64,000 nucleotides of DNA from Candidatus Eiseniibacteriota bacterium (lineage in GTDB: Bacteria; Eisenbacteria; RBG-16-71-46), in contig CAVQXP010000004.1 in assembly GCA_963717935.1 (NCBI GenBank), forward strand, positions 704,001 to 768,000, given 5' to 3'. Made by a program: the position numbers. Positions 27,001 to 39,000 of this stretch are shown one piece after another (position 1 is the first letter of the stretch; every line of letters begins with the position of its first letter).

Positions 27001-30000
27001 GTGCCTTTCCGACCGATGCCGAGCGCATCGAGCACGCGAGCGTGCGCGCCAGTGCGGGCTTCGCCGCCTTCCGGGAGACGCTCGAGCGCGACCTCGGCCC
27101 GCGTGCGGGCGGGGACTTCGCCCTGGGCGGGCGCTGGCTGGACTTCCGGCTCGAGCGCGAGCACCTGCTGCCGCTGAAGAACGAGGCGCTCGAGGAGCTC
27201 GGGCGCGAGCACGTGGCGCGTCTGCGGCGACTGCTGGAGAACGAGGCGCGGCGGCTCGACCCGCACCGTCCCTGGCGCGAGCAGATCGCGGAGATCCGCT
27301 GGCCGGAGGGGCCCCGCGCGCAGTGCGCGGCGCTCGGGGCCGAGCTCGAGCGAGCGCATCGTTTCGTCGTGGAGCGGCGGCTCGCGCCCCTGCCCGAGGT
27401 CCCGCTGGCGGTCGCGGAGGGGAGGACCTGGCAGCGCCCGCTCCACGCGGGGGTGGCCTACCTGCCGCCCGCGCCATTCGACCTCGATCCGGCGGGCATG
27501 TTGTTCGTGCCCGCGGGGGAAGGCGCGCGATGGTCCCCGACGCGGGCGGAACCGCCCGCGCGCACAGGGCCCGCGCTGGCCGCGGTGCGCCAGGGCTGGC
27601 CGGGGCTCCATCTGCAAGCGTCGCTCGCGATCCACTGCGGCTCGCGTCTGCGCCGGCTCGCGGCCAACCGCGTGTTCGCCGAAGGCTGGGCGCTCTACGC
27701 CGAGGAGTTGATGGCGGAGGAGGACTTCTGCACCTCGCCCGCCGACCGGCTCGGGCTCATCCTCGACCTGCTCGCGGGCGCCGGCTGCGCGGTCGCGGAC
27801 GCGGGCCTGCACGGCGGGCGCATGAGCCTCGTCGCCGCGGCCGGCTACCTCGCCGACGAGGCGCTGCTCGGGCGCGCCGAGGCGCTCGCCGAGGCGAAGC
27901 GACTGACCCTCGCGCCCGCGCAGGCCCTGGGCGGGCTCGTGGGCCGGCTGCAGATCCTCGAGCTGCGCGAAGAGGCGAAACGGCGCCTGGGCGCACGCTA
28001 CGATCGACTCGACTTCCATGCGGCCCTGCTCGCGGGGGGCACGCTGCCGCTCGCGCTGATCGGGGAGGAACTGTGGGAGCGGCTGGGGGTGGGCTGACGC
28101 ACAACCGTCGAGGCGTCCGGCTGCGCCACCCCGCCCTCACACGCCTTCGGAACTCGTCCGCGGGCGGCGGGGCGCAGACACGGGGCTCGCAGCGGGGGTC
28201 CCGGCCCCGGCCGACGCAGGATGCGGCGGCCGGGGAATTGCCGGGGAGCGAGCACCGCCAGGGAAAGCCCGCGCAGCGCGCGGGCGCTGGCGGAGCGGAG
28301 CGTCCCCGCGAAGGGCCCCGCGTCTGCGCCCCGCCGCAGGTTCGATCGGGGGGGCATGACGAAGGGGCGGAGCCGTCAGGCTCCGCCCCTTCGGACACCC
28401 GGGGCTGCTACCAGTGGTACCCGACGCCGATGCCCACCGCGTTGACGAAGGTCTTGTACTCACCCGTGAACGTGTCGAGCGGGGACGGCAAGTCCGGCTC
28501 GAGCGCCACGCCGACGCGGGGCCGCGCGAAGATGGCGAGTTCGTAGACGTCCACCGTCCAGCGCTTGTCGGTCCCGAGACGCGCAGCCCAGGCCCAGCGT
28601 CAGGCCGTGGCGGTCGGCGTCCGGCAGCAGGGGCGTGACCGCGTTGACCGGCGCGGGCGACTTGTCGAAGTAGTAGCCGGCACGGTAGGCCAGGCAGCCG
28701 CGCCGGTACTCGGCCCCGGTGCGGGCCTGCCACGCGTTGCCGTAGTCCTCGATCTTGCGCTTGTCCGGCGTCAGAGCGCTCTCGAAGTCGATCGGCAGGT
28801 CGTTGAAGACCTTCCACTCGTGCACGTTGAAGTCCGCCTCGACCGTCCACGCGGGCTTCGGGTTCCACGCCGCTCCGACCGACCACATGGCGGGGAAGCG
28901 CAGCACCGTGCTGACGCCCTGGTCCTTCAATACCGCGGCCAACTGCTGCGTCCAGCAGCGAGATGCCCGTCGCGATGCTGGTGAAGTCGGCCGTGCCGTC
29001 GTCTATGTGCACCACGACCTTGCTGCGGTAGTAGGCGCCCAGCTTCCACTCGGACGTCGGCGTGAACAGCACGGCCGCGTTCCATCCCGGGGCGGGAGTG
29101 AAGTCCGACGTGAGGTCCACGTCCGCCACGTGTTCCGTGCCGAGGCCGTAAGCGCTCAGGTCCCGGTAGGCCTGGTTCTTGAGCCCCACCTTGGCCCACA
29201 TCACGTCGCCACCGGCCGCGAAGCTCCACTTCTCGTTGGGCGCATAGGCCAGGCAGAGGCTGGCGTTGAGCCCCTGCAGGTCCGCCTTGGTGACGAGATA
29301 GCTGCCCGCGAAGGTCTCCGGGTCCCACTCGACGCCCAGGCCGAAAGGCGAGTTGATCCCGATGCCGACGGCCCAGCGCTTCGCCCAGCTGCGCGAGGCG
29401 TAGACCGTGGGCGGGTAGAAGGTCTGCCGGACCATGTCCGCCGAGCCGTCGGCGCCGGGGTAGGGGGCCTGGCCCGTGAACTCCGTGACGGGCTGCAGCG
29501 CGGTGCCGCCCACGTAGATCCAGGTCCCCTCGAGTCGGGTCATCGCGGCGGGGTTGAAGAACACCGCCGAGGCGTCGTTCACCGAAGCGGTGGCGGCGCC
29601 GGCCATCCCGAGGGCGGCGGCGCCCTGCTCGTAGATGCTGTATCCGGCCGCGTGGGCCAGCGTGGGGAGCAGGACGGCCACGAGCATCGCGGCGGCCAGC
29701 AGGGTCCGGATCGTTTCATCGGGTCAGATCTCCTCGGGTTCGGGTGTGCGGGTGGTCGCTCCGCCGCCGTTCGCCGGCGTCGGGGGGGACGCGTACAGAC
29801 TCTCGATGAGTCCGGCGTGGCGCTCGCGGACGACGCGCCGCCGGACCTTCAGCGTGGGGGTGAGCTCACCGCCCTCCTGGGTCATCTCCTGGTCGAGCAG
29901 GGCGAAGCGCTTGATCTGCTCGAAGGGCGCGAGCGTCTCGTTGAGGCGGTCCATGCGCCGCTGGACGATGCCGAGGATCTCGGGGCGCGCGAGCAGCTCC

Positions 30001-36000: not shown

Positions 36001-39000
36001 CGGTCCGCTGCGCCACGCCGACGCGCTGGGACTCGCCAGGGTGGAAGCCCGGCTGACGGCGCTGCGCGCCGAGAAGGGCGAGCGCTTCAAGCCCGCGCCG
36101 CTCATCGAGGAACTCGCGGCCCGGGGCGGAACGTTCACGGAGCCGGCGAGCGGGTAGGCCCGCACCGCCGGCGGTGGCCGCCCGGCGGCGCACGCTCCGA
36201 CCGGAATGCGGAAACGCCCGGCTGGTGGGCCGGGCGTCTGCCGTGGGAGGCCGGAGCTTGCCCACTCCGGGACCCTGCTCGCAACTCTGGAACACTCGCA
36301 CGACTGGCTAGCTCGCTCGCCACGTTCTCGCGTACGTGACGCTACTATTGACGCTCCGAACGGCCGATAAGTTGCAACGCGCGCGCAAAGAACGCGGCGA
36401 AGGGGACCAGCGCGGTGGTGCGGGCGACGAAAGCCGCGTTCATTGGGGTTTTCGCGGGCCTTGCTTGACTTCCTGCTGACCTCGGGCATAGTTGATTCGG
36501 GTTTTCGGGCCCACCCCCATGGGGGGGCACACGGGTCCGACGGCTGTTCCCCCGCTTACCGCGGCCGTCCGGCCGCGCGACCCGAGCGCGGGGGTGCTGA
36601 CGGGAGCACCGGTACACGGCCATGGATCTGCTGTCGCGCTCGAGGGGCTCGTCGCCTGACCGGGAGACGGGTTCTTTTCATTGGTGCGCGGGTGGCCACG
36701 GCCCGGCCGTGTCTTTCGCCCGATTCTCCGCGGCGGCGTTCGCGCCGGCGCGGTACCTGATCCGGCTGGCTCCGCGCCATGCGGGCCGGACCGACTTCGC
36801 CGTTCCTACCGCCGTTGGGCACTCCGACACGCACGTCGTCGCGGTCGCCCCCGGCCGGGCTTCCAGGAGAGACTCATGAGCACGAAGGGGTTCAATTCGT
36901 TCGAGATCGCCCAGGCCCAGTTCGACCAGGTCGCCGCACTGCTCGATCTGGACGCCGGGACGCGCGAGTTCCTGCGCTGGCCGATGCGGGAGTACGCCTT
37001 CAGCATCCCGGTGCGCATGGACGACGGGCACGTGAAGGTCTTCCGCGGCTTCCGCGTGCAGCACAACGACGCCCGCGGACCCTCGAAGGGTGGCATCCGC
37101 TTCCACCCGCAGGAGACCGTGGACACGGTGCGCGCCCTCTCCATGTGGATGACCTGGAAGTGCGCGGTGGTGGACATCCCGCTGGGCGGCGGCAAGGGCG
37201 GCGTGATCTGCGACCCGCACAACCTGAGTGCCCGCGAGCAGGAGCAGATCTGCCGTGGCTGGGTGCGGCAGCTGGTGCGCAACGTGGGTCCGGTCCAGGA
37301 CGTCCCGGCGCCCGACGTCATGACCAACGCGCAGCACATGCTGTGGATGCTCGACGAGTTCGAGGCGGTGCGCGGCGGCCGCTACCCCGGGTTCATCACC
37401 GGCAAGCCCGTCGGCCTGGGTGGCTCGCTGGGGCGCACCGAAGCGACCGGCTACGGCGTGGTCTTCACGCTGCGCGAGGCGCTGCGCGAGCACGGCGTCG
37501 CGGTCGAATCCACGCGCGCCAGCGTGCAGGGCTTCGGCAACGTGTCCCAGTACGCCATCCGGCTCTACGAGCAGCTCGGCGGCAAGGTCATCTGCGTGTC
37601 CTCGTGGGACCAGAAGGACCAGGCCTCGTATTCCTTCAAGCGGGTCTCCGGCGTGGACATGGACCAGCTGGTGGGCATCACCGACGTCTTCGGCGGCATC
37701 GACAAGGAGAAGGCGAAGAAGCTCGGCTACGAGGTGCTGCCGGGCGACGCGTGGATCGAGCAGCCGGTCGAGATCCTGATGCCCTGCGCGCTCGAGAACC
37801 AGATCACGCCCGTGACCGTGAAGAAGATCCACGCGGCCGTGAAGTTCGTGGCCGAGGGCGCCAATGGTCCCACCACCACCGAGGCCGACGCGGTGCTCAA
37901 GGACCGGGGGATCTACCTGATCCCGGACTTCCTGGCCAACGCGGGCGGCGTGACCTGCAGCTACTTCGAGCAGGTGCAGTGCAACATGAACTACTACTGG
38001 GACAAGGACGAGGTGCTGGGCAAGCTCGACAGCAAGATGACCTCGGCCTTCCTCGCGGTGAGCGAGCTGGCGCGCGAGCGCAAGCTGTACATGCGTGACG
38101 CCGCCTATGTCATCGCCATCAACCGCGTCGCCCAGGCCTGCAAGGACCGCGGCTGGGTGTGACGGCGGGAGCCGGGGCGGCGCGCGACGCCGCCCCGGCG
38201 ACGCGGTCCCGACCATGAACAGCGACGCTACGGGCGGCCAGGGGTTGCCGCGGTTCGACCGCCGCTTCTTCGAGGGGCGGGAGACCTTCACCACCATCGG
38301 CTCGGGCGCTCTCGGGGGCAAGGCCTCGGGATTGCTCGCCGCGCGTGAAGCGCTGGCGGACCGGCCGGCGGCCCTGCGCCATGAGGACCTGGAGATCTCG
38401 GTCCCGACGCTCACCGTGATCACCACCAACGCGTTCGACCTGTTCCTCGAGCGTAACCGCCTCCACGAGCTGGTCTACTCGGGCTCCGACGACCGCCAGA
38501 TCGCGGCCGCGCTGCAGCGAGCGGAGCTTCCCACGGAGATCGTGGGCGACCTGTGGGCGCTCGTCCGGCGGGTCCACACGCCGCTGGCGGTGCGCTCTTC
38601 GAGCCTGCTCGAGGACGCGCTGGCGCACCCGTTCGCCGGCGTGTACGCGACCAAGATGATCCCCAACAACCCGCACGACCCCGAGACCCGCTTTCGCAAG
38701 CTGGTCGAGGCGGTCAAGTTCGTCTACGCCTCGACCTTCTTCCGCGCGGCGCGCACCTACGTGCGCGTGGCCGGCCGGAAGCCGGAGGAGGAGAAGATGG
38801 CGGTGATCGTGCAGGAGGTGGTGGGGCACCGGCACGGCCCGCGCTTCTACCCCGAGGTCGCGGGGGTGGCCCGCTCGTGGAACTTCTACCCGACGGGACA
38901 CGCGCAGCCGGCCGACGGTGTGCTGGACCTGGCGCTCGGTCTGGGCCGGACCATCGTGGACGGCGGGCGCGCGTGGACCTGCTCGCCCGCCCACCCGCGC

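What a model noticed while it worked through the whole genome (the two positions that open the first line are those of the whole stretch)
28460..36157. RMDN/PTPIP51-like secreted TPR protein fixed inside the fadL-fadD / fadI-fadJ fatty-acid uptake and beta-oxidation clust [...]
g01317 is a signal-peptide TPR protein whose closest solved relative is the lipid-transfer TPR domain of human RMDN3/PTPIP51. It is the first gene of the thiolase/FadJ operon and shares a divergent promoter region with fadD and fadL, which makes it a candidate periplasmic fatty-acid or lipid shuttle between FadL and FadD and a bacterial member of the RMDN family.
Evidence so far: Best PDB hit 7CC7 RMDN3 over residues 46-243, E 3e-12, ahead of consensus TPRs; Pfam RMD1-3 covers 200 of 235 positions. 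Orthologue in 22 of 24 family genomes; thiolase directly downstream in 24 of 24 orthologous loci and fadD divergent in 22 of 24; a fadL-like gene beyond fadD in 19 of 31 longer metagenome loci, the rest mostly cut short. Tables: RMD1-3 near acyl-CoA synthetase in 461 genomes (61 in the order). Hydrophobic N-terminal leaders in the aligned homologues. Paper search showed only eukaryotic work.
(Added by a program. Inside this text positions count along the whole contig: contig position 704,001 is position 1 of the stretch shown here. "Call 12" and the like, gene names such as g00115 and contig names such as C1 are that model's own, and its searches are not shown. The text may have been shortened before it was handed on; [...] marks where a part breaks off. 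The agent that wrote the report below was given it as the finding of a first reader that could run no searches.)

Follow-up and report, generated by a model that had tools for sequence, protein, structure and literature searches.

The report
Periplasmic bacterial PTPIP51-like lipid carrier candidate
An uncultured bacterium encodes, inside its fatty-acid uptake and breakdown cluster, an exported relative of the human mitochondrial lipid-transfer domain of PTPIP51 that is also shaped like known bacterial fatty-acid-binding proteins, so it is a testable, but unproven and non-essential, candidate for carrying fatty acids across the periplasm.

Summary
31898-32695 encodes a 265-aa signal-peptide protein, first gene of a thiolase-FadJ operon, divergent from fadD-fadL. 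It is a true RMDN-family member: a 125-sequence bacterial profile matches PTPIP51 (7CC7) end to end (E 6e-41). Its model ranks 7CC7 first (Z 26.4), then palmitate-bound TatT (23.7), uncharacterised TTC0263 (22.6) and sterol-binding BstC (21.1). Relatives recur in other lipid settings: gene-fadL-like barrel-esterase (Zixibacteria), divergent from fadD, and type III PKS/FAAL operons. Against: 44 of 80 distant loci show no lipid neighbour; 15 of 61 family genomes lack the gene yet keep FadJ, 5 of them FadL too; co-loss with FadL fails phylogenetic correction; binding and cavity untested. Best reading (0.55): an accessory periplasmic acyl-lipid carrier working like TatT without a TRAP transporter. 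Pfam already files these proteins under RMD1-3, and this scan found the family before in another genome (e1-5301600). No paper on the bacterial branch or the RMDN-TatT likeness turned up in ten searches.

The parts
31898..32695 (+). RMDN/PTPIP51-family TPR protein, 265 aa, 12 predicted helices after the leader
31898..31978 (+). Sec-type signal peptide (about 27 aa), no lipobox
   Evidence: sequence and homologues; low pLDDT over residues 1-30; cleavage site inferred
32411..32473 (+). Family-specific amphipathic short helix 8 and GG(L/V)PxxAS turn (residues 172-192), matching the 'plug' helix 8 described for PTPIP51
   Evidence: PMC10243591
31735..31763 (+). Sigma-70-like promoter TTGACA-N17-GAGAGT in front of the TPR-thiolase-FadJ operon; the same element stays in front of thiolase where the TPR gene is missing
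   Evidence: GTTGACA in 35 of 53 intergenic regions; only match of this pattern in the window; function inferred
31659..31687 (-). Divergent promoter-like element (TTGTGG-N17-TAACCG) facing fadD-fadL
   Evidence: conserved blocks, position; function inferred
32709..33995 (+). Thiolase, FadI-like (13 bases after the TPR stop)
   Evidence: FadI model 367 bits, below its cut-off of 560
33992..36157 (+). FadJ-like enoyl-CoA hydratase / 3-hydroxyacyl-CoA dehydrogenase
   Evidence: best model FadJ, below cut-off
29724..31562 (-). Long-chain acyl-CoA synthetase, fadD-like
28408..29719 (-). FadL/OmpP1-family outer-membrane barrel, read in pieces in this assembly (extra bases at 28943 and 28579; probable one-base gap near 29710); intact 435-aa orthologue in L040

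Best explanation
A soluble periplasmic member of the RMDN/PTPIP51 TPR family that binds an acyl lipid in its plugged cleft and, in this lineage, helps move long-chain fatty acids from the outer membrane (after FadL) to the inner membrane, where FadD traps them as acyl-CoA for FadI/FadJ beta-oxidation. It is an accessory carrier, not a required step. Shown: family membership, fold, export signal (by hydropathy), place as first gene of the thiolase-FadJ unit, recurring lipid contexts. Inferred: periplasmic location, ligand binding, ligand identity, direction of transport.
For: Full-length homology to the PTPIP51 TPR domain, reported to bind and transfer phosphatidic acid and lipid radicals in vitro (PMC10243591 whole text; PMC11811300 passages). 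Model pLDDT 93; top matches 7CC7 Z 26.4 (223 aligned, rmsd 3.2), TatT 8G52 Z 23.7 (222, 3.0), BstC 7T1S Z 21.1 (215, 3.1); 8G52 is a palmitate complex and BstC binds sterols (PMC11713862, PMC10942540 passages). Reciprocal: a TatT model ranks 7CC7 fourth (Z 17.3), tied with BstC (18.0), above generic TPRs (15.3 or less). Contexts: fadD divergent in 18 of 80 distant loci, gene-FadL-like barrel in 17 of 80, followed by a lipoprotein-type esterase in 17 of 18 relatives of G162 (largely the same genomes); a second clade in type III PKS / ICMT-type methyltransferase / fatty acyl-AMP ligase operons (4 loci); these contexts fall on separate branches. TPR and FadL tend to be missing together: 37 both, 10 neither, 5 and 8 one only.
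Against: No binding test, and the cavity was not measured (model coordinates not available to scripts). 44 of 80 distant loci have neighbours such as uvrA, glutamate synthase, lepA/hemN; 7 of 7 loci of family f13 and the G161 group (exbB-exbD-tonB) also show no lipid genes. All 15 TPR-lacking family genomes keep FadJ; 4 loci keep fadL-fadD-thiolase-fadJ without it. Co-loss with FadL is not significant on a tree (4 independent pairs, sign test p 0.5). Uncharacterised TTC0263 scores Z 22.6 and OGT 19.6, so the margin over other TPRs is modest. FadL-family barrels include non-transporters BamG and PorV (PMC12578637), and none of the barrels reaches the NCBIfam FadL cut-off. The gene is co-oriented with the cytoplasmic beta-oxidation genes, not with fadL.
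Confidence: 0.55

Rival explanations
1. A periplasmic TPR scaffold or chaperone that binds a protein partner (a FadL-type barrel, a lipoprotein esterase or an inner-membrane complex), with no lipid cargo of its own.
For: TPR domains are mostly protein-binding modules and PTPIP51 lipid binding within the cleft was judged unproven (PMC10243591). Conserved non-structural residues include many polar ones (R76, H115, R124, H160, H213, E216, D248). In Zixibacteria it precedes a barrel and a lipoprotein. Divergent from exbB-exbD-tonB in the G161 group.
Against: No single partner family follows the gene across lineages; it persists without FadL in 8 of 60 genomes. Nearest folds with known ligands bind lipids. 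Operons with cytoplasmic PKS/FAAL enzymes offer no periplasmic protein partner.
Confidence: 0.18
2. A general envelope lipid binder (phospholipid, phenolic lipid or oxidised lipid buffer or exporter) whose place in this fad cluster reflects shared regulation by lipid supply rather than a role in import.
For: PTPIP51 prefers phosphatidic acid and lipid radicals in vitro (PMC10243591, PMC11811300). A second clade sits in biosynthetic operons (type III PKS, methyltransferase, FAAL, monooxygenase), one locus faces a KAS/START cluster (L210) and one protein is joined to DUF1295 (P0237). Most distant loci stand alone, as a housekeeping gene would.
Against: The two largest lipid contexts are uptake-type (FadL-like barrel plus esterase; fadD plus fadL, with a GDSL lipase beyond in L163/L167).
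Confidence: 0.17
3. The gene is an RMDN homologue of unrelated function that stays beside fadD through old synteny only.
For: The fadD-divergent arrangement of the window's order and of its sister clade may be one ancient event. The gene was lost about 6 times in the family. An identical protein sits by fabH in L091 and by prmA in L089, showing that chance lipid neighbours occur.
Against: At least two further, separately placed clades have different lipid operons (groups C and D, support 99 and 100); the gene lies between a conserved promoter and thiolase.
Confidence: 0.1

Closest known systems
TPR domain of human RMDN3/PTPIP51 (PDB 7CC7), Pfam PF21033 RMD1-3
   Same: Colinear over the whole domain (profile 27-246 of 254 against 6-228 of 235); 12 helices with a short helix 8; shared R76, H115, G123, H160, W165 and the LxxxE(R/K) segment; TM-score 0.72/0.83.
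   Different: Stand-alone domain with a cleavable-type leader instead of the membrane anchor, FFAT motifs and coiled coil; faces the periplasm, not the cytosol. RMDN1 is reported in the intermembrane space (bioRxiv 10.64898/2026.04.03.716438, passages), the closer topological match.
TatT (TRAP T-component, PF16811): E. salina TatT with palmitate (8G52), Tp0956 (3U64)
   Same: Periplasmic all-helical TPR-like ring; Z 23.7 and 19.7; weak colinear profile match over 197 columns (probability 40%); long-chain fatty-acid binding is the proposed activity.
   Different: No PF16811 match, no lipobox, no TRAP genes nearby; the genome has a separate true tatT-dctP-dctM system.
BstC sterol-binding protein of Methylococcus capsulatus (7T1S)
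   Same: 12 helices around a central pore (PMC10942540); Z 21.1 over 215 residues; a TatT-like protein working outside a TRAP operon beside lipid genes.
   Different: 17% identity; sterol export context with BstA/BstB; not in PF21033 as far as tested.
E. coli FadL-FadD uptake pathway
   Same: Same outer-membrane barrel family, acyl-CoA synthetase and FadI/FadJ-like enzymes.
   Different: The step from periplasm to FadD is described as 'an unknown mechanism' (PMC3460868 passage, 2012); PF21033 was found in 0 of 14 well-known control genomes, so this protein would not solve the E. coli case.

Membership tests
RMDN / RMD1-3 TPR family (PF21033) | Score above the curated Pfam cut-off | tested here: met
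   50.4 bits against 26.7; 123 of 125 aligned homologues match at E 0.001
RMDN / RMD1-3 TPR family (PF21033) | Full-length colinear match to the PTPIP51 TPR domain, beyond generic repeats | tested here: met
   One stretch, 143.7 bits, E 5.9e-41; first hit in both structure searches
RMDN / RMD1-3 TPR family (PF21033) | 12 helices with short plug helix 8 and capping helix 12 | tested here: met
   12 helices after the leader, helix 8 = residues 174-184, last helix 248-264; description from PMC10243591; position of the plug in 3D not inspected
RMDN / RMD1-3 TPR family (PF21033) | Deep channel-shaped cavity | not testable with these tools
RMDN3/PTPIP51 proper | N-terminal membrane anchor, FFAT motifs, coiled coil | tested here: not met
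   265 aa: 27-aa leader followed directly by the domain
RMDN3/PTPIP51 proper | Lipid binding and transfer in vitro | not testable with these tools
   needs bench work
TatT (PF16811) | Pfam TAtT match | tested here: not met
   No hit at E 0.01; 1 of 125 homologues at 1.3e-4; the genome's only PF16811 hit is another gene
TatT (PF16811) | Lipoprotein | tested here: not met
   strict lipobox pattern in 2 of 125
TatT (PF16811) | TRAP P/Q/M genes in the operon | tested here: not met
   neighbours are fad genes; no DctP/DctM among neighbour representatives scanned
TatT (PF16811) | TatT/BstC helical-ring fold | tested here: met
   Z 23.7 to 8G52 and 21.1 to 7T1S; reciprocal rank of 7CC7
TatT (PF16811) | Sequence-level homology to TatT | tested here: inconclusive
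   profile-profile probability 40% over 197 columns; single-sequence controls did not separate the query from generic TPRs
FadL long-chain fatty-acid transporter (neighbouring barrel) | NCBIfam FadL equivalog cut-off; not BamG or PorV | tested here: inconclusive
   FadL is the best model for the window's and the Zixibacteria barrels but far below cut-off; PorV and BamG score close behind for the latter

The most novel reading that the evidence does not exclude
RMDN/PTPIP51 and TatT/BstC are two branches of one ancient family of periplasmic TPR lipid carriers. The bacterial RMDN branch is the soluble carrier that takes fatty acids from FadL-type barrels across the periplasm in FCB-group bacteria without a TRAP transporter, and the eukaryotic RMDN proteins (RMDN1 in the intermembrane space, RMDN2/3 turned to the cytosol) descend from such a carrier.
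Probability: 0.3. Interest if true: 0.85.

Novelty: new variant of a known kind. Interest (0 to 1): 0.62.

Why it matters
How fatty acids cross the periplasm after FadL is an open step (PMC3460868), and whether the PTPIP51 TPR cleft really holds lipid was left open by its crystal structure (PMC10243591). A soluble, single-domain bacterial homologue encoded among fatty-acid genes gives a simple object for both questions and names the ligand to try first. The structural tie between PTPIP51 and the fatty-acid-binding TatT/BstC proteins was not found in the papers searched and offers a ligand-bound template (8G52) for the human domain. The limits: the family is absent from the model organisms tested, and the host lineages are mostly uncultured.

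Tried and rejected
Complementary distribution with TatT (redundancy as the reason for loss): not seen; TatT in 9 of 16 genomes lacking the gene and 16 of 22 having it. Strict co-evolution with FadL: raw Fisher p 8e-4, but not significant with independent pairs. Fused forms: none among 1062 longer candidates (weak evidence); P0237 (DUF1295 plus RMD1-3) carries a second hydrophobic leader before the domain and may be two merged genes. fabH adjacency in L091: dropped as support, an identical protein has other neighbours in L089. Plasmid copies: none. Sequencing runs: only relatives (share of words 0.15 or less); contigs cannot show co-transcription. A complex prediction of the protein with FadL was not available, so direct docking is open. 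The original PTPIP51 structure paper (Yeo 2021) and the TatT-palmitate paper (Zhai 2023) were not read; cavity-lining residues could not be mapped. Loci from Bacteroidota proper, Verrucomicrobiota and Balneolota, where the Atlas places many members, were not reached; phylum searches around G161 returned only 5 and 10 genomes. No regulator operator was evident in the intergenic region beyond the two promoter-like blocks. No eukaryotic sequence was in hand, so no tree joining bacterial and eukaryotic RMDNs was built.
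Full report
Observation. The region holds five genes as described: a FadL/Toluene_X barrel and an acyl-CoA synthetase on the minus strand, and a TPR gene, a thiolase and a FadJ-like enzyme on the plus strand. NCBIfam's best models are FadL, long-chain acyl-CoA ligases, FadI-like thiolases and FadJ, all below their curated cut-offs. The TPR gene starts at ATG 31898 (homologues begin MRI-), is 265 aa, and ends 13 bases before the thiolase. The window's fadL is in pieces: two extra bases (28943, 28579) are absent from a close metagenome locus and from relatives' contigs, so an assembly error is likelier than a dead gene (inference). 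A homologue is named Candidatus Eisenbacteria by its source; the window probably belongs there (inference).

Family. Pfam RMD1-3 scores 50.4 bits (cut-off 26.7), and 123 of 125 aligned bacterial homologues match it. The best solved relative of the single protein is 7CC7 (E 3.1e-12). A profile of the 125 sequences (about 30% identical to the query outside its own clade) matches 7CC7 in one stretch over positions 27-246 of 254 at 143.7 bits; three engineered consensus TPRs rank higher only by summing many short stretches, of at most 43 bits in the two alignments shown. The match includes the non-TPR segment at residues 165-192. The AlphaFold model (pLDDT 93.2) has 12 helices after the leader, the eighth a short amphipathic one, as described for PTPIP51, where helix 8 plugs a channel (PMC10243591, whole text read). 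The family is wide: 1108 representatives at E 1e-10, some of them generic TPRs; Atlas clusters dominated by Gemmatimonadota, Bacteroidota, Verrucomicrobiota and Balneolota already carry automatic RMD1-3 names. It was found in 0 of 14 well-known control genomes. A hydrophobic N-terminal window is present in 115 of 125 members and a strict lipobox in 2: a soluble exported protein, by a simple rule.

Fold. Foldseek ranks 7CC7 first (TM 0.72/0.83). The wide structural search gives 7CC7 Z 26.4, TatT 8G52 23.7, TTC0263 22.6, BstC 7T1S 21.1, Tp0956 19.7 and OGT 19.6. 8G52 is TatT with palmitate, and TatT proteins bind long-chain fatty acids while BstC binds sterols (PMC11713862 and PMC10942540, passages). 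As a reciprocal test I modelled the genome's own TatT: its neighbours are 3U64, 8G52, BstC (18.0) and 7CC7 (17.3), then a designed protein (15.8), TTC0263 (15.5) and generic TPRs (15.3 or less). PTPIP51 and TatT/BstC therefore group together structurally, by a modest margin. Sequence support for that link is inconclusive. The query is not a TatT: no PF16811 match, no lipobox, no TRAP genes.

Context in the family. The orthologue is in 46 of 61 family genomes; in a 151-genome phylum sample a member was found in 62, all in four families (only 17 candidates were scored per genome; the tally includes unpublished G067, on which no other claim rests). Where present it precedes the thiolase in 65 of 69 informative loci, faces fadD in 61 of 64, and has fadL beyond in 17 of 20. 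A TTGACA-N17 promoter-like element lies before it, and the same element lies directly before the thiolase where the gene is missing, which marks it as first gene of that unit. It is dispensable: all 15 genomes without it keep FadJ; 7 family loci show fadD facing thiolase directly, 4 of them with fadL. Across 60 genomes, 37 have both it and FadL, 10 neither, 5 FadL only, 8 the TPR only (several genomes are under 85% complete). On a thiolase tree of 48 family rows this is 6 and 7 changes and 4 independent pairs, not significant.

Context elsewhere. The best 80 of 122 distant loci found with a five-sequence pattern (a biased sample, titles KSB1, Calditrichota, Zixibacteria, Marinimicrobia and others as deposited) split into 18 with fadD divergent (two with fadL and a GDSL lipase beyond), 17 with a FadL-like barrel directly downstream, 1 facing a KAS/START/monooxygenase cluster, and 44 with no such neighbour (neighbours were annotated through 76 representatives covering the recurrent and nearest clusters out of 159, plus 40 further proteins). 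Among relatives of G162, 17 of 18 loci read gene, barrel, esterase, and one ends at a contig edge (about two thirds are the same genomes as before); one locus of the window's own class has the same order (L104). A second clade in the window's order sits in biosynthetic operons: gene, type III PKS, ICMT-type methyltransferase, fatty acyl-AMP ligase, FAD monooxygenase in L103 and L112, parts of it in L113 and L114; the likeness to phenolic-lipid srs/bps clusters is recalled, not tested. On a tree of 119 members the barrel-esterase and PKS groups are separate clades (support 99, 100), the fadD-divergent groups may share one origin, with a further pair inside a non-lipid clade. So lipid contexts arose at least three times, but most lineages sampled (KSB1-titled, Marinimicrobia, family f13, the G161 group, L089/L094) show none. 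The barrels could be non-transporting FadL homologues such as BamG or PorV (PMC12578637 passages).

Mechanism. Most likely the protein is exported, binds an acyl chain in the cleft under helix 8 with conserved polar residues (R76, H115, H160, H213, E216, D248) near the head group, and shuttles between the membranes, speeding delivery of fatty acids to FadD, which drives uptake by forming acyl-CoA. Membership, fold and operon position are shown; location, binding, ligand and direction are inferred. I give this 0.55, a protein scaffold 0.18, a general lipid binder or exporter 0.17, and hitch-hiking 0.10.

What is known. PTPIP51 TPR transfers phosphatidic acid and lipid radicals in vitro (PMC10243591; PMC11811300 passages), but the commentary notes no ligand structure and no mutant control. 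RMDN1 is reported in the intermembrane space (bioRxiv 10.64898/2026.04.03.716438 passages; supplements not seen). The periplasmic step after FadL is called unknown in E. coli (PMC3460868 passage). Ten searches of the held library listed no paper on bacterial RMDN proteins or on a PTPIP51-TatT likeness; most subscription journals are not covered, and the original PTPIP51 and TatT structure papers, whose fold comparisons might mention it, were not read. This scan noted the same family earlier in a marine SAR406 genome (e1-5301600); that note is not independent evidence, and it came after my reading was recorded.

Verdict. A real, undescribed bacterial branch of a known family, working most likely like TatT but without a TRAP transporter; accessory rather than fixed. 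New variant of a known kind; interest 0.62.

Noticed in passing
G000:C4:279330-280100 (L225:3427-7245): A separate true TPAT system (tatT lipoprotein, dctP, dctM); tatT is present in 25 of 38 related genomes tested.
   Followed up: partly
L103:6646-12263; L112:1861-7536: Five-gene operon: RMDN-like exported protein, type III PKS, ICMT-type methyltransferase, fatty acyl-AMP ligase, FAD monooxygenase; candidate phenolic-lipid pathway with its own carrier.
   Followed up: partly
L200:6004-9600 and 16 other loci: Conserved Zixibacteria unit: RMDN-like protein, FadL-like barrel, lipoprotein-type GxSxG esterase, usually divergent from dnaA-dnaN.
   Followed up: partly
window 26448-28097 (-): DUF885-like gene (Pfam hit in the orthologue L128, none in this copy) stays downstream of fadL/fadD across the family, also where fadL is missing.
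   Followed up: no
window 25745-26386 (+): Protein with two treble-clef zinc fingers fused to a cold-shock domain; the same fusion lies near the cluster in L122.
   Followed up: no
window 21101-24597: DEAD/DEAH helicase-like and methyltransferase-like genes appear in several frames, suggesting that one-base errors are common in this assembly.
   Followed up: no
P0237: DUF1295 membrane protein joined in frame to an RMD1-3 domain that has its own hydrophobic leader.
   Followed up: partly
L220-L223, L207, L208: In one small lineage the RMDN-like gene is divergent from exbB-exbD-exbD-tonB and followed by a conserved 270-aa gene with no Pfam match.
   Followed up: no
PDB 2PL2 (TTC0263): This Thermus TPR protein ranks among the RMDN/TatT-like folds in both structure searches (Z 22.6 and 15.5) and may be another uncharacterised member.
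   Followed up: no
L181, L183, L185, L193, L197 intergenic regions: Facing TTGACA...TGTCAA pair between fadD and the RMDN-like gene: overlapping divergent promoters or an operator.
   Followed up: no
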